Shown: positions 3,894 through 13,772 of the stretch, piece by piece
How the letters are laid out: every line of letters starts with the position of its first letter
Position numbering within the stretch: the first letter of the stretch is position 1
The notes under the pieces: generated by a model
Told to the model about the DNA's origin: nothing
What the model saw: the letters and a program-made list of their open reading frames with translations, nothing else
Database searches by the model: none
From: a virus
Direction: 5' to 3' (one strand)
DNA: 64,000 nucleotides
Virus record (IMG/VR): IMGVR_UViG_3300045988_114440
Coordinates: 37,704 to 101,703 of that record
Position numbers and translations under genes: made by a program

Positions 3894-4652
3894 ATGAGCA
3901 TGTTAGGTTTTACATTCATCACAGACAGCAAGCTGTCAATGTACAGGGAGAAAGCTATTAAATCCGAAAATCTTGCAAAAGAAATTGAGGAAATGCAGGA
4001 TAAGGCCGCTTCTTACAAGGAAAGGCTTTCCGAACTCAAGTCAGATATCGCTTCAAAGGATAAAGAGATTTTATCTGTTGGCAAAGATCTTTCTGAGTCT
4101 AAGGAAAAGATTGACGCCTTGAAGGAAAATCAGAAAAAGTTGATAAAAAGCGTCAAGAAGAAAACGGAAGAACTTGATGCTGTCAATGTCGATCTTGACA
4201 AAGCCAGGTCTGATCTTGATGAGGCTAATTACAAAATCAGAAACTTGGAAGAAAAGAAAAACAGTATCTCATCTGAATTAAAAAAGAAATCAAATGCATT
4301 GATTGAAGCCAGGATCAGAATAGGAGATTTGGAAAACGAGGTTTCGGTTGGGTCCAAAACAATACAAGAGTTAGAATCGAAGCTGAAATTAATGCAAGTA
4401 GAATTAAGAGGCTACCAAATAGGTATAATCGGGAAAGATAAAAACAATGTCGCTGAGCCGGAATTGGATAAAGATGAGGAGTCAGATAAGGATGTGGCAG
4501 AATCGGAGAAATTTGATGAAAATAAGGAAGTTAAATACAATACGCTTCTTTATACAGATGTGATTCAGGAAGAAGCAGGTGACATTGTGGAGCCCGAAAA
4601 CGAAGCTGAACGAGTAAAAGACACTAAAAAGAAGAAGAAAAAAAAGAAGTAG
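3894..4652 (+). CDS. coiled-coil protein with poly-Lys C-terminus
   Basis: Heptad-like K/E/L-rich sequence; ends KKKKKKKK. Confidence 0.5.
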   Translation: MSMLGFTFITDSKLSMYREKAIKSENLAKEIEEMQDKAASYKERLSELKSDIASKDKEILSVGKDLSESKEKIDALKENQKKLIKSVKKKTEELDAVNVDLDKARSDLDEANYKIRNLEEKKNSISSELKKKSNALIEARIRIGDLENEVSVGSKTIQELESKLKLMQVELRGYQIGIIGKDKNNVAEPELDKDEESDKDVAESEKFDENKEVKYNTLLYTDVIQEEAGDIVEPENEAERVKDTKKKKKKKK

Positions 4653-4797: not shown

Positions 4798-4870
4798 GGT
4801 CCTGTAGCTTAGTGGTGAAAGCAGGCGGCTCATAACCGCAAGATCGTGGGTTCAAATCCCTCTGGGACCA
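4798..4870 (+). tRNA. tRNA-Met/fMet (anticodon CAT; Ile-lysidine not excluded)
   Basis: Cloverleaf by eye: acceptor ggtcctg/tgggacc, D-stem gctt/aagc, anticodon loop cuCAUaa, T-loop ttcaaat; CCA not encoded. Confidence 0.7.
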
Positions 4871-4871
4871 C

Positions 4872-4942
4872 TGTCCAATGGTGTAGTGGTAGCACAACAG
4901 ATTTTGGTTCTGTTAGCGGAGGTTCGAATCCTCCTTGGATAA
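4872..4942 (+). tRNA. tRNA-Gln (anticodon TTG)
   Basis: Acceptor tgtccaa/ttggata, anticodon stem acaga/tctgt with loop ttTTGgt, T-arm ggagg-ttcgaat-cctcc; begins 1 nt after the previous tRNA. Confidence 0.7.
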
Positions 4943-5012
4943 CGGTACATATTTTGTGTAAAGTGTTAATTATCTAAGTGTTTGTGGTGTGTGAACATAG
5001 CAAACATTAAAT

Positions 5013-5084
5013 GGCCCATTAGTTTAACGGATAAAACCCTTGAGTCCTAATCAAAAGTTGCCTGTTCGATTCAGGCATGGGCTA
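5013..5084 (+). tRNA. tRNA-Arg (anticodon CCT)
   Basis: Acceptor ggcccat/atgggct, D-stem gttt/aaac, anticodon loop gtCCTaa, T-arm gcctg-ttcgatt-caggc. Confidence 0.6.
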
Positions 5085-5087
5085 CAT

Positions 5088-5159
5088 GGCTTGTTGGATG
5101 AGTGGTTTAGTCAGGGATCTGCAAAATCTCGTAGGGCGGTTCGATCCCGCCACAAGCCT
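5088..5159 (+). tRNA. tRNA-Cys (anticodon GCA)
   Basis: Perfect 7-bp acceptor ggcttgt/acaagcc, anticodon stem gggat/atctc with loop ctGCAaa, T-arm ggcgg-ttcgatc-ccgcc. Confidence 0.65.
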
Positions 5160-5177
5160 CTAAAAAAAAGTAAGACA

Positions 5178-8056: not shown

Positions 8057-8136
8057 TATCATATTTTAACTGTTTTTAAATCGTATTGTTGATATTATTA
8101 TGTATGTTTGCAATATCAATATAAAATATTATAACC

Positions 8137-8547: not shown

Positions 8548-9104
8548 TGAGCAATATAGATATTAAAAACAAAAGAATACTGCTATTCGATTTTGACGGG
8601 ACGCTTATAGAAACCGCTTCTGGGAATACGTTCGCTACAGACTTGACAGATATGAGGATTAAGATGGATGTGGTGAATAAGGCTCTTGACCTCATGCAGG
8701 AGAACGGTGTTAAGGTGTTTGCTATCGTAAGCAATCAAGGAGGAGTAGAAGCTGGGTTTGTTTCTGGAGCTGATATTGAAGCTAAGATAGAATACGTACT
8801 GAGGTCCGTACATGATCTGGCGGTAAAACGTGGCATAAGAGGCGTCCTATATGAAAAAAGGTTGTGTTATTCCAATGACAAACAAGATCCGATGAGGAAG
8901 CCTAACACGGGCATGATTGATGATATTCTTATGAAGTGTAAAGACACGGTAATGCGTGGTATGAACTTTAGTCAACTTAAGGGATGTTCGTTGATGGTCG
9001 GAGACGCCAGTGGTCTGCCAGGGCAGTTCTCTGATTCGGATAAGGTATGTGCTGAGAATGCCGGTATTGACTATATGGACGTTATCACGTTTGTTGGTAA
9101 ATAA
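8544..9104 (+). CDS. HAD-superfamily phosphatase (HisB-N/GmhB/PNK-3'-phosphatase-like)
   Basis: Motif I LLFDFDGTL (DxDGT), motif II VSNQGG, motif III/IV K...MVGDASG..D. Confidence 0.7.
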   Translation: MMSNIDIKNKRILLFDFDGTLIETASGNTFATDLTDMRIKMDVVNKALDLMQENGVKVFAIVSNQGGVEAGFVSGADIEAKIEYVLRSVHDLAVKRGIRGVLYEKRLCYSNDKQDPMRKPNTGMIDDILMKCKDTVMRGMNFSQLKGCSLMVGDASGLPGQFSDSDKVCAENAGIDYMDVITFVGK

Positions 9105-9116
9105 TTTTAGGTAGTT

Positions 9117-10088
9117 ATGTGCAATATTATGAAGGTGAATAAAACGGCGATAGTTTATCATAAATCGGATTTAGATGGCGTTGTGTCGGCAGCCATCGCA
9201 ACCATGTACGAAAACAGTAAAAACAAGGATGTTATTTATATCCCGTATTCGTATGAAGATGATGTAAAGAAAGTTATTGATAAAGTAGATGAATGTGGGG
9301 TTGTTTACGTTCTTGACGTGTCTTTCGGAGCCGATTCTAAAACGATTTTCAAGAAATGGCTTGATGAAGGAAAGAGCCTGATGTGGATAGATCATCACAA
9401 GGGAATTATCGAAGATAGTAAGACATGGGGGTTCGTAGTTCCAGGGTTGAGGAGAGTCGGTACCGGTGCGTGCGCACTGGCCTCGGACCTGCTGATGGGG
9501 AAGGTGCCGGCGATAGTCAGGTGCTTATCAGACTACGATGTGTGGAATAAAGAATCCGGTTTAGGCTGGGATACGGTAGTAGCCGTCCAGTATGCCTTGA
9601 GATCAAAAATAAGACTCAATGTGTTAATAGCATTGTCGTATTTGTATGACCATTTTAAAGAAAATATGAAGGACAATGAGGTGGATTTAATTTTCTATGA
9701 TCTCGCTAAAGAAGGACGTGCTATAATTAATTACATGGCCGGCAAAAACGAACAAGAGGTAAGTGCGTGCTCGTTCGAAGCTTACGTAGACGAGGTTAAG
9801 GTCGTGGCGATGAATACTACAGAATTTAGTTCCAAAGTATTTGATTCTCTTACACCTGACTGGTTAGATGGTAGAAAAATTAAAGCCCTGATGCCATTTT
9901 GTATCATGCCAGGTGGTAAAGTCCGGTTCTCTCTTTATGAATGCGTAGAAGACAGTGCAGATTGCTGTGAGGTAAGTAAGAGATTTGGTGGTGGAGGACA
10001 TGCTGGTGCTGCTGGATTCGTTATAGACGTATCAAGTGACCAGTTTAAGTACTTCCTTGAAAACCACAAACTTACTTCAATTAAATAA
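9117..10088 (+). CDS. DHH-DHHA1 family phosphoesterase (NrnA/RecJ-like)
   Basis: DHH motifs YHKSDLDGVVSAAI, VLDVSFG, MWIDHHK; DHHA1 motif GGGGHAGAAGF near the C-terminus. Confidence 0.8.
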   Translation: MCNIMKVNKTAIVYHKSDLDGVVSAAIATMYENSKNKDVIYIPYSYEDDVKKVIDKVDECGVVYVLDVSFGADSKTIFKKWLDEGKSLMWIDHHKGIIEDSKTWGFVVPGLRRVGTGACALASDLLMGKVPAIVRCLSDYDVWNKESGLGWDTVVAVQYALRSKIRLNVLIALSYLYDHFKENMKDNEVDLIFYDLAKEGRAIINYMAGKNEQEVSACSFEAYVDEVKVVAMNTTEFSSKVFDSLTPDWLDGRKIKALMPFCIMPGGKVRFSLYECVEDSADCCEVSKRFGGGGHAGAAGFVIDVSSDQFKYFLENHKLTSIK

Positions 10089-10109
10089 ATCAATGAGGTA
10101 GTGTTTTAA

Positions 10110-10143
10110 ATAGGATTGGTTGCCATCAATCCTATTTTTTTTG
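10110..10143 (+). terminator. rho-independent terminator
   Basis: 9-bp stem ataggattg/caatcctat with 8-nt loop, followed by T8. Confidence 0.7.
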
Positions 10144-10170
10144 TGTTGAGCTGGAAGAGGTGGGTGAGAT

Positions 10171-10309
10171 AATGTTTGTGTGAGGAATGGAAATGATGCT
10201 GAAGGGCATATGTGGTGTGAGAGATGAAAAAGGTTTGTGTAATAAGGGAGAGGATAAAATGTTTATATAATGGGAGAGAGATAAAAAAGGTTTGTGTAAT
10301 GGGAGAGAG
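10171..10309. repeat. purine-rich direct repeats (GTTTGTGTAAT[AG][AG]GGGAGAG twice, plus a related GTTTGTGTGAGG copy)
   Basis: Repeat copies at about 10226-10252 and 10283-10309; a third partial copy near 10174. Confidence 0.5.
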
Positions 10310-10338
10310 GGGGTACCTATCACGAACCTCCCGCCCCC

Positions 10339-10396
10339 GAAACGCGTTTTCTCCCCCCACACCCCCTTCGCTGGAAAACCGGAAACGCGTTTTTAC
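10339..10396. promoter_or_regulatory. two copies of the perfect palindrome AAACGCGTTT flanked by C-tracts (candidate dimeric protein-binding sites)
   Basis: gaaacgcgtttt at about 10339-10350 and again at about 10383-10394; CCCCCC/CCCCC runs between them. Confidence 0.4.
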
Positions 10397-10789
10397 CTTA
10401 AACCTACAAACTCGCTGATTATCAACATTTTATTTAAATTATTGATAATCAACGTATTATTGTAACCTATTGATTATAAGCCATTTAAATAAACATATAT
10501 CCTACATATTAATGTACGCGTATAATACCGCTCTTGTGTATTTTGTAACTTGCTAATAATCAGATAATAGAATCGAAATTAATACAAGTTAACAAAAAAA
10601 AGATAGTATATATATTTGTAGTAACAATAAAAGTAGTATATTTGCAATGTGTTAAAGCGATAACACATGCTGACATGATGATCCTATATAGTGTACCCGT
10701 TGGGCAAACTATATCTGTATCTGTAATTGCCCGCGTTGTGGGTTATTAAGTTGAATATCATTTGTTTAACAATTAAAATATATTGGATT

Positions 10790-11329
10790 ATGATTACAAA
10801 GAAAAACGTTAACAAACTACAAAACACTGTTATTAAAGAAAATGCTTCTAATTTGGTAGGCGCGGTAAAATTGTATAACGCTTTATTTTCGAATGGAGCT
10901 GACTTGAAAGCAATTTGTAAGACGTTGGAAATACCAACCGAATATGCTGTAAAGGTTGCGGCACTCGCAAAGGACAAAAAACGGTTGGTTGCCGTGTGTA
11001 GCCAAATGTTACCTAAAGTAGGTGATACCTTTGTTAAGTTTTCTTTATACTCTAAAGTATATAAGGATAACAAGGTGGACAAGGAAAAAGGAATTGAGGC
11101 AAAAACGGCTGACTGGTGCGCTGATAATGTGGTTTATGGCGGGGAATATAAATCTTTCGGTTTTTCAACCGCTGAAACATTGGAGACAAAAAAAAGCACA
11201 AAGTGGCTTGTTAAAGAAACGGACGAGTATAAAGCTACTTATGTAGCCGTTAAGATCAAGTCTTATTCAATTCGTACCGTTGCAAAGTGTGTGAGTGAGT
11301 ATTTGGCGCACGAAAGCAACCAGCAGTAA
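10790..11329 (+). CDS. hypothetical protein
   Basis: Track ORF 10727-11329 trimmed to ATG 10790 (MITKKNV...); preceded by a TTTAACAATTAAAAT motif. Confidence 0.45.
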   Translation: MITKKNVNKLQNTVIKENASNLVGAVKLYNALFSNGADLKAICKTLEIPTEYAVKVAALAKDKKRLVAVCSQMLPKVGDTFVKFSLYSKVYKDNKVDKEKGIEAKTADWCADNVVYGGEYKSFGFSTAETLETKKSTKWLVKETDEYKATYVAVKIKSYSIRTVAKCVSEYLAHESNQQ

Positions 11330-11800
11330 AAAAAGGTTAGGCGCGTACCGTTAAACGCGTCTGTACGCCGTTGTCAGTGGGTGCACGTCCCGCGTATGCT
11401 TTAGACTGAAGCTGACAAAACAGAGAGTTATTTTACATATTGGAGATAGATATACCTTTGCCCTTGCCGTTGGCAATTAAAGGGCTGGTATTGCTGCATG
11501 AACTGCACTAAATAAGTGTGGTTTATGTTAGGTATGTTAGTACAGTTTGGAAAACATACCGTTGTACGCGGTTTATCTCCAGACCGAAACGTGTCTTACT
11601 TGCCTACACGTAAAATAGGACAAGGCTGTAGATTAAATTACAGGGTATAAACATGTAGCCTACCATGTAGGAGCGTGATATATCAAAACGCAAGGACACA
11701 ATCGCCTTTATTTGTGGCTAAGTTGTGTAGCAGACGGAAAATATAATAACAACATAGTACGGGCCTGTACACAAGAACTACGTACTAATTACGGGCTGTT

Positions 11801-11863
11801 GGTTGTAGCATAAAATTCGTATAGAATAGGAATGCGTGTTCGGTTCGATTCCGGAGCAACCTC
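11801..11863 (+). ncRNA. tRNA-like minihelix element (acceptor-like stem plus canonical T-arm)
   Basis: ttcgg-TTCGATT-ccgga T-arm; 5' ggttgt pairs with 3' gcaacc; no anticodon arm found by eye. Confidence 0.3.
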
Positions 11864-11886
11864 TAAATTATAAACAATATAATAAC

Positions 11887-12057
11887 ATGGGAAAGAAAGC
11901 AATGATCAACGCTTTAACTGAAGCGTTCAATAAATCTAAAAACAGTTGCGTAAAAATAACATTGCGTAACTATATCGAGACGGTTGAAGCACTAAGCGAA
12001 AGTGAGTACAAAGAGGCGGAAGGTTTCTATATTGAAGCACTTAACCGCTGGGGTTAA
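11887..12057 (+). CDS. hypothetical small protein (56 aa)
   Basis: ATG at 11887 (MGKKAMINAL...); the track ORF began at an upstream GTG that overlaps the tRNA-like element. Confidence 0.35.
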   Translation: MGKKAMINALTEAFNKSKNSCVKITLRNYIETVEALSESEYKEAEGFYIEALNRWG

Positions 12058-12330: not shown

Positions 12331-12392
12331 TATCCTACTCTTTCTATTTACGGGTATGATATTCTGAGAGTGAACGGCGAATGTGGACAATA

Positions 12393-12484
12393 TTGGTCTA
12401 AAACGAAACAAAAATAGGAGCGTTCGGATATAATGCCGGTATTTTGTCTATATCATGTCGTTAAAATTGGTCTAAAACGAAACT
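12393..12484. repeat. two 21-nt direct repeats A[AT]ATTGGTCTAAAACGAAAC separated by a roughly 53-nt spacer
   Basis: Copies at 12390-12410 and 12464-12484. Confidence 0.5.
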
Positions 12485-12814
12485 TGAGGCGGTTTTCTGA
12501 CCCAAAATAGGGTGTCGGATGCCGCCTTTTTCATCTCTATGGATTGAAAATTAGGCTTATTGTATTTTTCTTAAAAATGAGGTATGCTTGATTATCAATT
12601 AGTTAGGTTTTATAATCCCCGTATTTTTGGACATACTTATTGTATTTTTTTATTCTATGTGGTGGTTTTTATTAGTAGCTGATCTTTATTTTCTGTCGGT
12701 TGGTATTCGCTCTATGTTGGAGTACGGACCGGATCAGTATAATATTGTAATGGTCTTTTGCTTTTCTTTGTTGGCTTTGATTATAGGTTTAAATATCTAT
12801 CTTGATAGGAGGAG

Positions 12815-12952
12815 CAGGCGGTAGGGCGTGGGCTGAAGGCTCTCTATTCTCTCTATGGAATGATATTATCTCCAAATCCCCCATACTCCATGCCAGAGTA
12901 TAAGCTTGTAGCGCTCTCCGTATGCCGGTAGTGAGGCGGTAGGGCGTGGGTT
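12815..12952. repeat. GC-rich direct repeat AGGCGGTAGGGCGTGGG, two copies about 120 bp apart
   Basis: Copies at about 12816-12832 and 12934-12950, inside a long noncoding stretch. Confidence 0.5.
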
Positions 12953-13023
12953 CTATGCGGAAAGCCGGAGGATTAGCGGGAGTTGGAGAGGGGGAGAGGG
13001 AGGGCACTCCCTACCAACAAAAT

Positions 13024-13140
13024 TCAATAGATAAGCGTTTTAAAACAACATTATGTAGGGTTTTCCCACAAAATTAAGGATTACAGTGCTTTAAAACAGC
13101 ATAATGTGAGTTTATTCTACAAAATTCAATAGGTTGAGAG
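13024..13140. repeat. tandem imperfect repeats of about 45 bp (TTTAAAACA[AG]CAT[TA]ATGT.GGTTT....ACAAAATT)
   Basis: Two adjacent copies; AAAATTCAATAG also recurs at 13019 and 13111. Confidence 0.45.
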
Positions 13141-13194
13141 TTGAAAACTATATTCTATAGATTAGTGGTAATCGGAATGTTTAACAATTAAAAT

Positions 13195-13464
13195 ATGGAT
13201 GGTATGAACGTATATGATTTTGCACCCGATTTAGATTTGAGTAAAGAAGTAGAAGGTTCTATTTTTGGGGTGAAAGGAATAGAAGGCAGTGATGGTATAG
13301 TATATGCTAAGGTAGTTAGCTTTATAGAAGTTAGGGATTACAGTTGTGAGGGGTGTATTTTTAATGATTGTTATAAGGATAAATGTTTATTATCGCGTAG
13401 TGATAGTTGTATAGATGGAGATTGGATTTGTAGGTACGAACAGGCTGCCATAGAGGGGGAGTAG
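13195..13464 (+). CDS. small Cys-rich protein, paralog of the 14655-14879 gene
   Basis: FAPDLDLS... CEGCIFNDCYKDKC aligns with FGPDMDLS... CKDCIFFNNSERC in the 14655-14879 product. Confidence 0.5.
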   Translation: MDGMNVYDFAPDLDLSKEVEGSIFGVKGIEGSDGIVYAKVVSFIEVRDYSCEGCIFNDCYKDKCLLSRSDSCIDGDWICRYEQAAIEGE

Positions 13465-13727: not shown

Positions 13728-13772
13728 TGGGATTCATGGTGCGGTAGGTCGGTTCGATTCCGGCGATCTCAC
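13728..13772 (+). ncRNA. tRNA-like minihelix element
   Basis: 5' tgggatt pairs with 3' gatctca (two G-U pairs), flanking the T-arm gtcgg-TTCGATT-ccggc; discriminator C; 30 nt upstream of the 13802 start. Confidence 0.3.

What the first reader, a model, noticed from the sequence alone, without database searches (positions are those of the whole stretch)
10089..10789. 700-nt noncoding region with origin-like architecture
After the 10110-10143 terminator the region shows three features. (i) Purine-rich direct repeats GTTTGTGTAAT(A/G)(A/G)GGGAGAG twice, plus a related third copy. (ii) Two perfect 10-bp palindromes AAACGCGTTT spaced about 45 bp apart and embedded in C5-6 tracts (G-tracts on the other strand, so G-quadruplex potential). 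(iii) An AT-rich stretch with inverted TGATTATCAA / TTGATAATCA repeats. Iteron-like repeats, dimeric binding sites and an AT-rich unwinding element together are the hallmarks of a replication origin or a major regulatory switch.
Basis: seen in the sequence. Interest (0 to 1): 0.6.

Follow-up and report, generated by a model that had tools for sequence, protein, structure and literature searches.

The report
Conserved control region in crAss-like phage
This 700-base gap in a 150-kb gut crAss-like phage is a real, strongly conserved, single-copy cluster of protein-binding sites, but its right third is an ordinary promoter plus mRNA leader, its "iterons" are a dispensable variable repeat, and no test available here shows it to be a replication origin.

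Summary
The window is an epsilon crAss-like phage, 93% identical to csAssE-Sib. The region has five parts. (1) An intrinsic terminator. (2) A purine-rich tandem array. Close relatives carry 1-14 boxes, some distant lineages carry 0-1, and the array breaks many assemblies. (3) A near-invariant C-rich core with two AAACGCGTTT palindromes. (4) The longest AT-rich stretch of the 64 kb. It holds 4 of the window's 7 IHF-consensus sites and a third ACGCGT palindrome. (5) A Bacteroidetes-type promoter (invariant GTATATTTGCA) and a 5' leader whose hairpins show compensatory changes.

Positions 10302-10620 are more conserved than the adjacent gene. The same module sits upstream of homologues of that 179-aa gene down to about 27-40% protein identity. 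ACGCGT occurs only three times in the 151-kb relative, all here.

No GC-skew inflection, DnaA-box cluster, recognisable initiator or Rfam match was found. The apparent terminal repeat was an assembly artefact.

Best reading (0.4): upstream control region and leader of a conserved gene cassette about 2 kb from the PhageTerm-predicted genome end. An origin remains the main rival (0.3).

The parts
10108..10143 (+). Intrinsic terminator closing the upstream operon (DHH phosphoesterase gene 9117-10088).
   Evidence: 13-bp stem, 4-nt loop and T8 run. Fold energy -13.5 kcal/mol, z = -4.07.
10145..10312 (+). Purine-rich, almost C-free tandem array. Boxes (G)TTTRTGTRATGGGAGAG lie at 10233, 10261 and 10290, with degenerate copies near 10172 and 10208. 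It behaves as a VNTR-like duplication of the left border of the core.
   Evidence: for the repeats; GC skew +0.8 to +1.0. Among 66 close relatives there are 1-14 boxes at 27-34 bp spacing. The array is hypervariable, with 20-70% gaps. Sixteen IMG/VR contigs end inside it. Lineages L297, L300 and L299 have 0-1 box.
10309..10400 (.). Near-invariant core: GGGGGTACC, then C-runs, with two 10-bp palindromes AAACGCGTTT at 10340-10349 and 10383-10392.
   Evidence: Column entropy is 0.02-0.13 over 64 distinct relatives, against 0.2-0.5 in the adjacent gene. The palindromes are unique in the window. The core is recognisable upstream of gene homologues at about 38-40% protein identity.
10413..10495 (.). 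AT-rich block with TGATWATCA-type dyads at 10416, 10443 and 10471. Four matches to the IHF consensus WATCAANNNNTTR lie at 10420(+), 10435(-), 10447(+) and 10463(-).
   Evidence: 4 of the window's 7 consensus matches fall in 56 bp, and 4 of 13 in the 151-kb relative. The first site is kept in L286, L288, L291, L293 and L295. Nested inverted repeats I1 and I2.
10502..10527 (.). Invariant element CTACATATTAATGTACGCGTATAATA containing the palindrome TACGCGTA (10515-10522).
   Evidence: Entropy 0.08. This is the third of only three ACGCGT sites in the 151-kb relative. It is present in flipped orientation (TACGCGTACATTA) in L286, L288, L297 and L300.
10554..10618 (+). Conserved block holding a fourth TGATAATCA-type site (10554-10562), AATCGAAA (10571-10578), and promoter-like P1: TTAACA (10589) - 16 nt - TATATTTG (10611-10618).
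   Evidence: Entropy 0.05-0.22. P1 scores 10 of 12 in the sigma-70-type scan. AATCGAAAA is kept next to the promoter in L286, L288, L295 and L300.
10636..10646 (+). Promoter P2: GTATATTTGCA, containing the Bacteroidetes -7 element TAnnTTTG (10637-10644). The inferred transcription start is near 10649.
   Evidence: TATATTTGC is invariant or >=90% conserved in all 76 aligned relatives. It is kept in most distant loci: identical in L288, L290, L291, L298 and L299, and with changes only outside the -7 box (or GTACATTTGCA) in L286, L287, L293, L295, L297 and L300; L292 has a different -7 box (TACCTTTG). Similar boxes lie in other intergenic gaps at 8102 and 41214. The consensus itself is from established knowledge of Bacteroides primary-sigma promoters.
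10649..10789 (+). Structured 5' leader of the 179-aa gene. Hairpins lie at 10649-10666 (loop AAGCGA), 10686-10714 and about 10728-10744. The translation-initiation leader TGTTTAACAATTAAAATAT is at 10763-10781.
   Evidence: RNA fold z = -3.2. RNAalifold on 76 sequences: hairpin 1 has compensatory changes in 3 of 6 pairs (27, 30 and 16 sequences) with almost no broken pairs, and hairpins 2 and 3 also covary. An exact second copy of the 19-mer lies at 13178 before the next gene.
10790..11329 (+). 179-aa gene of unknown function, always found with the module.
   Evidence: No Pfam or PHROG match. 38 cluster representatives found, down to 24% identity. Confident AF2 model (pLDDT 89) with no significant fold match.

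Best explanation
The region is the upstream control region and 5' leader of a conserved gene cassette (the 179-aa gene and what follows it). The cassette lies about 2 kb from the PhageTerm-predicted end of an epsilon crAss-like phage genome.

Shown:
- Transcription from the upstream operon stops at the terminator.
- A host-type promoter, the invariant -7 box GTATATTTGCA (with a second promoter-like site 26 bp upstream), precedes a leader that begins with a covariation-supported hairpin.
- Upstream of the promoter lies a single-copy, extremely conserved set of dyad-symmetric sites: two AAACGCGTTT, one TACGCGTA and TGATWATCA-type sites. These are interleaved with four IHF-consensus sites.

Inferred:
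- A dimeric DNA-binding protein occupies the ACGCG-centred dyads.
- IHF/HU-type proteins, which every crAss-like phage encodes, bend the AT-rich DNA so that the distal sites (-130 to -310) contact the promoter. This would switch the terminal transcription unit on or off.
- The purine-rich tandem array is a lineage-specific, unstable duplication of the core's left border. At most it adds extra binding sites.
For: - The promoter box is invariant or >=90% conserved in 76 relatives and kept, identical or with changes outside the -7 box, in most distant loci.
- The leader hairpins show compensatory changes and fold with z = -3.2.
- The module is found directly upstream of homologues of the same gene at about 27-46% protein identity, while the gene further upstream differs between lineages.
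- Palindrome symmetry is kept by symmetric substitutions: AAACGCGTTT, AAAACGCGTTTT, AGAACGCGTTCT. The half-site is reused as direct repeats (GGCAACGCGC x5) in L292.
- IHF-consensus sites are clustered. IHF is a signature gene of crAss-like phages (PMC7886860).
- Positions 10302-10620 are more conserved than the coding sequence next to them.
- A related G-rich + array + identical 19-nt leader arrangement precedes the next transcription unit at 12975-13196.
Against: - No regulator has been identified. The 179-aa protein has no HTH or other recognisable fold.
- The dyad sites lie 130-310 bp from the promoter, which is far for a simple operator.
- The core is far more conserved (about 85% over 37 nt) than the co-inherited protein (about 40%). 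That suggests recognition by something more conserved than a private regulator.
- The sites are unique in the genome, which fits an origin, packaging site or centromere as well as a single-target regulator.
- The IHF consensus used is that of E. coli. The specificity of Bacteroidetes or phage IHF-like proteins is unknown.
Confidence: 0.4

Rival explanations
1. Replication origin, possibly an ori-plus-initiator cassette with the 179-aa protein as a new initiator. An initiator would bind the ACGCG dyads (and the array boxes), IHF-type proteins would bend the DNA, and the adjacent AT-rich stretch would melt to load the phage DnaB-like helicase and the host polymerase. Epsilon crAss-like phages encode no DNA polymerase.
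For: - The architecture matches: direct repeats, dyads, IHF-type sites and an AT-rich block, in the order seen upstream of rep genes in iteron replicons.
- 10421-10630 is the lowest-GC 200-nt and 300-nt stretch of the 64 kb.
- It holds the strongest tandem repeats in the window, and there is no other iteron-like array near the replication genes.
- The sites are single-copy in 151 kb.
- Conservation exceeds that of the coding sequence.
- The cis-module and the gene are co-inherited as a cassette.
- The magnitude of GC skew rises from about 0.17 to about 0.33 across the region.
- Crassvirales origins are unmapped (PMC10136315).
Against: - There is no sign change or cumulative-skew extremum here. 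Skew follows gene orientation, and the structural block shows no matching step.
- There is no DnaA-box cluster.
- The 'iterons' range from 1 to 14 copies among close relatives and 0-1 in some lineages.
- The box sequence is unrelated to the dyads, unlike the Rep iteron/operator pairs.
- The 179-aa protein has no Rep-like or winged-helix fold.
- The region lies 25 kb from the primase/helicase genes.
- The promoters point away from the AT-rich block, unlike T7 or T4 transcription-primed origins.
Confidence: 0.3
2. Part of the DNA-packaging or genome-end apparatus. It would be a terminase/IHF assembly site analogous to lambda cosB, or a boundary of a terminal repeat.
For: - The start of the csAssE-Sib record was set by PhageTerm (P = 1.5e-22; PMC11054128). 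It maps to window 12368|12369, about 2 kb to the right.
- IHF-type sites are clustered, and the crAss IHF gene sits in the structural/packaging block (PMC7886860).
- The site is single-copy.
- Contig ends pile up at 10095-10320 and at 13005-13130.
Against: - Contig ends fall at different offsets inside perfect tandem units.
- Contigs that end at the second array restart just after it, with 34-42-nt overlaps. They are circular assemblies broken at repeats, not a 2.8-kb terminal repeat.
- Logan 2.77-kb contigs are simply bounded by the two arrays.
- 2 kb is far from the predicted cut.
- A more cos-like arrangement (two ATTGGTCTAAAACGAAAC repeats plus one IHF-type site) lies right at the predicted end, 12392-12605.
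Confidence: 0.08
3. A structured nucleic-acid element. The two palindromes would pair with each other (a 12-13-bp stem with a C-rich loop of about 30 nt) in RNA or unwound DNA. It could serve as a hairpin promoter or entry site for the virion RNA polymerase, a priming signal, or a non-coding RNA. The purine-only array would favour R-loop formation.
For: - The inter-copy stem is the minimum-free-energy fold.
- In L291 and L298 the copies AAATCGCGTTTTT and AAAAACGCGATTTT are exact reverse complements although neither is self-palindromic. L288 and L299 are the one-mismatch intermediate.
- The phi14:2 virion RNAP transcribes denatured DNA and has no known promoter motif, and long early intergenic regions are highly transcribed there (10.1101/2020.03.07.982082).
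- GC skew is +1 over the array.
Against: - Fold z-scores of the core are not significant: -1.45 on the plus strand and +0.46 on the minus strand.
- There is no covariation among 76 close relatives.
- L293 keeps only one palindrome.
- The single compensatory event could equally be gene conversion between inverted copies.
- There is no Rfam match.
- The element lies between a terminator and the mapped promoter box, so transcription across it is not shown.
Confidence: 0.08

Closest known systems
Iteron-type theta origins with the rep gene downstream (pSC101 ori/repA, R6K gamma ori/pir, P1 oriR/repA; from established knowledge)
   Same: - Same order of parts: direct repeats, dyad repeats, IHF-type site(s), an AT-rich block, then the promoter of an adjacent small gene pointing away from the site.
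- Single copy in the genome.
- The cis-site and the gene travel together.
   Different: - The direct repeats vary from 0 to 14 copies and are unrelated in sequence to the dyads.
- The period is about 30 bp rather than about 22 bp.
- There are no DnaA boxes.
- The adjacent protein has no winged-helix Rep fold.
- There is no skew signal.
- The core is much more conserved than the protein, whereas Rep and its iterons normally co-diverge.
Complex phage or bacterial promoters controlled by distal dimer sites plus IHF bending (e.g. Mu Pe, lambda pL, sigma-54 enhancers; from established knowledge)
   Same: - Dyad-symmetric sites 100-300 bp upstream.
- IHF-consensus sites between them and the promoter.
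- A transcribed, structured leader.
   Different: - The regulator is unknown.
- The promoter is of the Bacteroidetes -33/-7 type.
- Four IHF-type sites arranged as nested inverted repeats is unusual.
- The sites occur nowhere else in the genome.
Predicted twin origins and terminal region of the prototypic crAssphage, Carjivirus communis (PMC10983915)
   Same: - Two repeat-rich non-coding spots about 2.6-2.8 kb apart, lying in the same stretch as the mapped or predicted genome end. Here they are at about 10.2 kb and about 13.0 kb, with the PhageTerm end at 12.37 kb.
   Different: - In C. communis they sit at the strand switch next to repL, and coverage data support them.
- Here the region is inside a co-directional gene block, no RepL was detected, and no coverage data are available.
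- Sequence-level comparison was not possible because the record is absent from the collection.
Early, highly transcribed long intergenic regions of crAss-like phage phi14:2 (10.1101/2020.03.07.982082)
   Same: - Long non-coding gaps flanking small early-type genes near a genome end.
- Shared TTAACAATTAAAA leader and tRNA-like GGTTCGAnTCC elements in neighbouring gaps.
   Different: - phi14:2 has no ACGCGT dyads, no C-rich core and no IHF-site cluster in its first 9 kb.
- No homologue of the 179-aa gene was found by tblastn.

Membership tests
Iteron-type replication origin | Several conserved direct repeats (iterons) that are required, and retained, across related replicons. | tested here: not met
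   Box number is 1-14 in close relatives and 0-1 in L297, L300 and L299, which keep the rest of the module. Unit sequences differ between lineages.
Iteron-type replication origin | An adjacent initiator (Rep) protein with a recognisable Rep, winged-helix or initiator fold. | tested here: not met
Replication origin (any type) | An AT-rich, easily melted stretch next to the binding sites. | tested here: met
   10421-10630 is the lowest-GC 200-nt window of the 64 kb at 22%. Other intergenic gaps reach 23-25%.
Replication origin (any type) | Strand-composition switch (cumulative GC-skew extremum) at the site. | tested here: not met
   Skew is positive on both sides. The sign changes only where genes change strand, at about 55 kb in the window and at 17.4 and 110.8 kb in csAssE-Sib.
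Replication origin (any type) | DnaA-box cluster (for host-DnaA-dependent origins). | tested here: not met
   One single-mismatch box in the region. Across the window there are 34 such boxes against 22 expected, with no clustering here.
Replication origin (any type) | Replication actually starts here (marker-frequency peak or autonomous replication). | not testable with these tools
   No read data or experiments are available.
Bacteroidetes primary-sigma promoter | A -7 element TAnnTTTG, with a transcript starting a few nt downstream. | tested here: met
   TATATTTG at 10637-10644 is invariant or >=90% conserved in 76 relatives and kept in most distant loci. A covarying hairpin starts 5 nt downstream. 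The start site itself has not been mapped.
Bacteroidetes primary-sigma promoter | A -33 element TTTG 19-21 nt upstream. | tested here: inconclusive
   TTTG at 10615-10618 gives an 18-nt spacer in the window. It reads TATG in about half of the relatives.
Intrinsic terminator | A stable hairpin followed by a T-run at the end of a gene. | tested here: met
IHF binding sites | Match to WATCAANNNNTTR, enriched over background. | tested here: met
   4 of the 7 window matches lie in 56 bp. Actual binding, and the specificity of Bacteroidetes or phage IHF, are untested.
Direct terminal repeat / genome end | The same segment present at both ends of complete contigs, with fixed boundaries. | tested here: not met
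   Contig ends are scattered inside tandem units. Contigs ending at the second array restart after it with 34-42-nt overlaps.
Known RNA family (Rfam 15) | Covariance-model match. | tested here: not met
   No hit at E<=1 in 9000-12000. There are no gathering-score hits in the region.
G-quadruplex element | Four G-runs with short loops, conserved in relatives. | tested here: not met
   Only a loose motif with a 14-nt loop at 10330-10366 on the minus strand. It is absent at the homologous place in 8 distant loci.

The most novel reading that the evidence does not exclude
The near-invariant core (ACGCG dyads able to pair with each other, a C-rich loop, flanking IHF-type bends and the AT-rich block), together with the co-inherited 179-aa protein of novel fold, is the replicon cassette of polymerase-less epsilon crAss-like phages and their relatives. 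It would be a new origin-plus-initiator type that recruits the host replisome. It might also support a plasmid-like carrier state.
Probability: 0.2. Interest if true: 0.75.

Novelty: new member of a known kind. Interest (0 to 1): 0.45.

Why it matters
Neither the way Crassvirales start replication nor the way they control their early or terminal transcription units is known. This work defines a precise, single-copy cis-module of about 330 bp (10309-10646) that is conserved across deep divergence, together with its partner gene. That gives a concrete fragment to test for origin activity, regulator and IHF binding, and promoter control in one of the most prevalent human-gut phage groups.

It also explains a practical nuisance. 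The two variable tandem arrays at about 10.2 kb and about 13.0 kb are where assemblies of these phages break, producing thousands of orphan contigs of about 2.77 kb.

Tried and rejected
1. A 2.8-kb direct terminal repeat bounded by the two contig-end hot spots. Rejected: the ends lie inside tandem units and the contigs are circular assemblies.
2. Known RNA families. None matched.
3. A conserved G-quadruplex. Not conserved.
4. Coding potential of the internal ORFs. Broken by indels in the C-runs.
5. A host-derived sequence or attB. The only hit was one mis-binned MAG contig among 185,579 species genomes.
7. Alignment-driven locus search. Replaced by exact-protein look-ups.
8. Comparison with the prototypic crAssphage. 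The record is not in the collection.
9. Pfam scan of csAssE-Sib 'DNA-binding' genes for an IHF/HU domain. No hits.
10. Unrelated phages also carry paired GAAACGCGTTTC-type sites, but in other contexts: next to a replication-type gene, or in an XRE-repressor operator region. This only shows that such palindromes are generic binding sites for dimeric proteins.

Full report
**Identity and setting.**
- Positions 9000-12000 of the window match phage csAssE-Sib at 93% identity. csAssE-Sib (OR575929) is a 151-kb epsilon crAss-like phage from human gut.
- From its annotation, the window's plus strand carries one long co-directional block. It starts about 5 kb upstream of window position 1 and ends near 55 kb.
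- The finding lies inside this block. Upstream are nucleotide-metabolism and replication-accessory genes, the last being a DHH phosphoesterase at 9117-10088. Downstream is a long run of small genes of unknown function.
- Epsilon crAss-like phages encode no DNA polymerase (PMC7886860, PMC11054128).

- The terminator (10108-10137 plus T8) is real (z = -4.1).
- The repeat pattern occurs 3 times against 0.17 expected. It is the top tandem repeat of the 64 kb.
- AAACGCGTTT occurs twice in the window, only here, against 0.05 expected.
- The TGATTATCAA / TTGATAATCA pair is part of a set of TGATWATCA-type dyads.
- Composition is extreme. GC skew is +0.8 to +1.0 over 10140-10300, then -0.3 to -0.45 over the C-rich block, then GC content of 17-30%.

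**Contig ends: a lead that turned out to be an artefact.**
- I fetched 80 IMG/VR loci with the downstream gene. Sixteen contigs end 470-700 nt upstream of it and about 17 end 1.5-1.8 kb downstream. This looked like a 2.8-kb terminal repeat.
- The ends fall at different offsets inside tandem units.
- Contigs that end in the second array (13017-13160) begin again just after it, with 34-42-nt overlaps.
- Logan contigs of about 2.77 kb simply run from array to array.
- So both arrays are assembly break points, and there is no evidence for a terminal repeat.

**Comparative footprint among close relatives.**
- I compared 64 distinct sequences and the 76-row alignment A1.
- The array is hypervariable. 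It holds 1-14 boxes of (G)TTTATGTGATGGGAGAG at 27-34-bp spacing.
- By contrast, 10302-10400 is almost invariant (entropy 0.02-0.13) and 10400-10620 is at 0.05-0.35. Both are more conserved than the adjacent coding sequence at 0.2-0.5.
- Extra-conserved islands are ...ATTAATGTACGCGTAT... (10502-10527), 10562-10621, the box GTATATTTGCA (10636-10646) and TGTTTAACAATTAAAATAT (10763-10781).
- Length changes of 1-2 nt in the C-runs rule out the internal ORFs.

**The right third is a promoter and an mRNA leader.**
- GTATATTTGCA contains the Bacteroidetes -7 element TAnnTTTG. The consensus is established knowledge, not something tested here.
- Immediately downstream, RNAalifold finds hairpins with compensatory changes. 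In hairpin 1, three of six pairs switch between GC/AU/GU or UA/AU in 16-30 sequences, with almost none broken. Hairpins 2 and 3 also covary.
- The leader folds with z = -3.2.
- The 19-nt stretch before the start codon recurs exactly before the next gene at 13178. It also resembles the leader in phi14:2.

**Deep conservation.**
- The 179-aa protein has 38 cluster representatives, down to 24% identity.
- Loci encoding homologues at 27-46% identity all carry the same module upstream of the gene (sequences). The order is:
  1. terminator
  2. C-poor purine-rich repeats, differing in each lineage
  3. GGGG(T/A)ACC plus a C-rich block with (A)AAACGCGTTTT sites
  4. an IHF-type site
  5. an AT-rich block with TACGCGTA
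  6. AATCGAAAA...GTATATTTGCA
  7. leader hairpin
  8. gene
- The 37-nt core is about 85% identical where the proteins are about 40% identical.
- The gene upstream of the module differs between lineages, so the module travels with the 179-aa gene.
- Three lineages (L297, L300, L299) have no array or a single box, so the array is dispensable.
- Dyad symmetry is preserved by symmetric changes: AAACGCGTTT, AAAACGCGTTTT, and a single AGAACGCGTTCT in L293.
- L292 instead uses five direct GGCAACGCGC repeats.
- In L291 and L298 the two copies are exact reverse complements of each other without being self-palindromic. This is either inter-copy pairing or gene conversion.
- The TACGCGTA element occurs in both orientations. 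That favours recognition of double-stranded DNA by a protein.

**Uniqueness and IHF-type sites.**
- In the whole 151-kb relative, ACGCGT occurs three times, all in this region. AACGCGTT occurs only here.
- The IHF consensus WATCAANNNNTTR has 7 matches in the window, which is the chance expectation (7.6). However, 4 of the 7 lie in 10420-10475.
- An IHF homologue is one of the eight signature genes of crAss-like phages (PMC7886860).

**Tests of the origin idea.**
- Against: cumulative GC skew has no extremum here, and skew follows gene orientation in both the window and the full relative.
- Against: the magnitude of skew is lower to the left (about 0.17) than to the right (about 0.33), but the structural block shows no complementary step.
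- Against: there is no DnaA-box cluster.
- Against: the 179-aa protein gives a confident model with no Rep-like or any significant fold match.
- Against: the iteron criterion fails, as described above.
- For: the AT-rich block is the lowest-GC 200-300-nt stretch of the window, though only narrowly.
- For: no other repeat-rich candidate exists in the window.
- For: single-copy status, very high conservation and cassette-like inheritance all fit an origin.

**Genome-end context.**
- The csAssE-Sib authors set the record start with PhageTerm (P = 1.5e-22; PMC11054128). That point maps to window 12368|12369, about 2 kb to the right of the finding.
- Beside it lie two ATTGGTCTAAAACGAAAC repeats and another IHF-type site.
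- The whole 10.1-13.2-kb segment is gene-poor: the module, the 179-aa gene, a non-coding stretch with a tRNA-like T-arm, two small ORFs, a terminator, the predicted end, and the second array.
- Its organisation is kept in distant lineages.
- It recalls the early, highly transcribed intergenic regions of phi14:2 (10.1101/2020.03.07.982082). It also recalls the paired 'origins' and terminal region proposed for the prototypic crAssphage (PMC10983915).

**Verdict.**
- Shown: - Inferred as most likely (0.4): the remainder is a nucleoprotein control region for that promoter.
- A replication origin (0.3) cannot be excluded and is the most interesting alternative.
- Packaging-related roles and structured-nucleic-acid roles are less likely (about 0.08 each).
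- The module is not described in Rfam or in the papers searched. I file it as a new member of a known kind.

Noticed in passing
window 12975-13196: A second variable tandem array (about 51-nt unit, ACAAAATTCAATAGATAAGCGTTTTAAAACA...) lies at 13017-13160. It is preceded by a G-rich block (GGAGAGGGGGAGAGGGAGGG) and followed by the same 19-nt leader as at 10763. It is an even stronger assembly break point than the first array, and it looks like a paralogous module before the next transcription unit.
   Followed up: partly
window 12368|12369, 12392-12409, 12466-12483, 12593-12605: The PhageTerm-defined start of the csAssE-Sib record maps here. Next to it are two copies of ATTGGTCTAAAACGAAAC 74 bp apart and an IHF-consensus site inside TGATTATCAA. 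This makes it a candidate packaging (pac/cos-like) site.
   Followed up: partly
window 11838-11865 and 13745-13770; L302 (phi14:2) 1826-1846 and 4473-4500: tRNA T-arm-like elements (GGTTCGATTCC flanked by complementary arms) sit in non-coding stretches and are not called by ARAGORN or Rfam. The early intergenic regions of phi14:2 carry similar elements, there ending in ACCA or CCA. They may be tRNA-like 3' ends of early non-coding RNAs.
   Followed up: partly
window 44685-44914 (+): Rfam HEARO RNA (RF02033), 90 bits, above the gathering score. This is the guide RNA of IscB/HNH-type IS200/IS605 elements. An insertion element therefore appears to sit inside the replication-gene block.
   Followed up: no
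csAssE-Sib whole genome (L082-L085): The hexamer ACGCGT occurs only 3 times in 151 kb, all within the module. This suggests genome-wide avoidance of this palindrome (restriction pressure?) except where it is functional.
   Followed up: partly
window 12816-12832 and 12934-12950: A perfect 17-nt direct repeat, AGGCGGTAGGGCGTGGG, occurs 118 bp apart in the non-coding stretch before the second array.
   Followed up: no
L001 8959-9351 versus window 10088-10108: csAssE-Sib has an extra 130-aa gene between the phosphoesterase and the terminator that is absent from the window. In many relatives identity drops from about 91% (right of the array) to about 83-86% (left of it). The array therefore marks a mosaic or recombination boundary.
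   Followed up: no
window 4798-5160: A cluster of four tRNA genes (Met-CAT, Gln-TTG, Arg-CCT, Cys-GCA) lies inside the replication-accessory gene block.
   Followed up: no
L295 2340-3000: In the most distant homologous locus examined, the conserved promoter box is followed by a leader of about 650 nt before the gene. The leader may contain a separate structured RNA.
   Followed up: no
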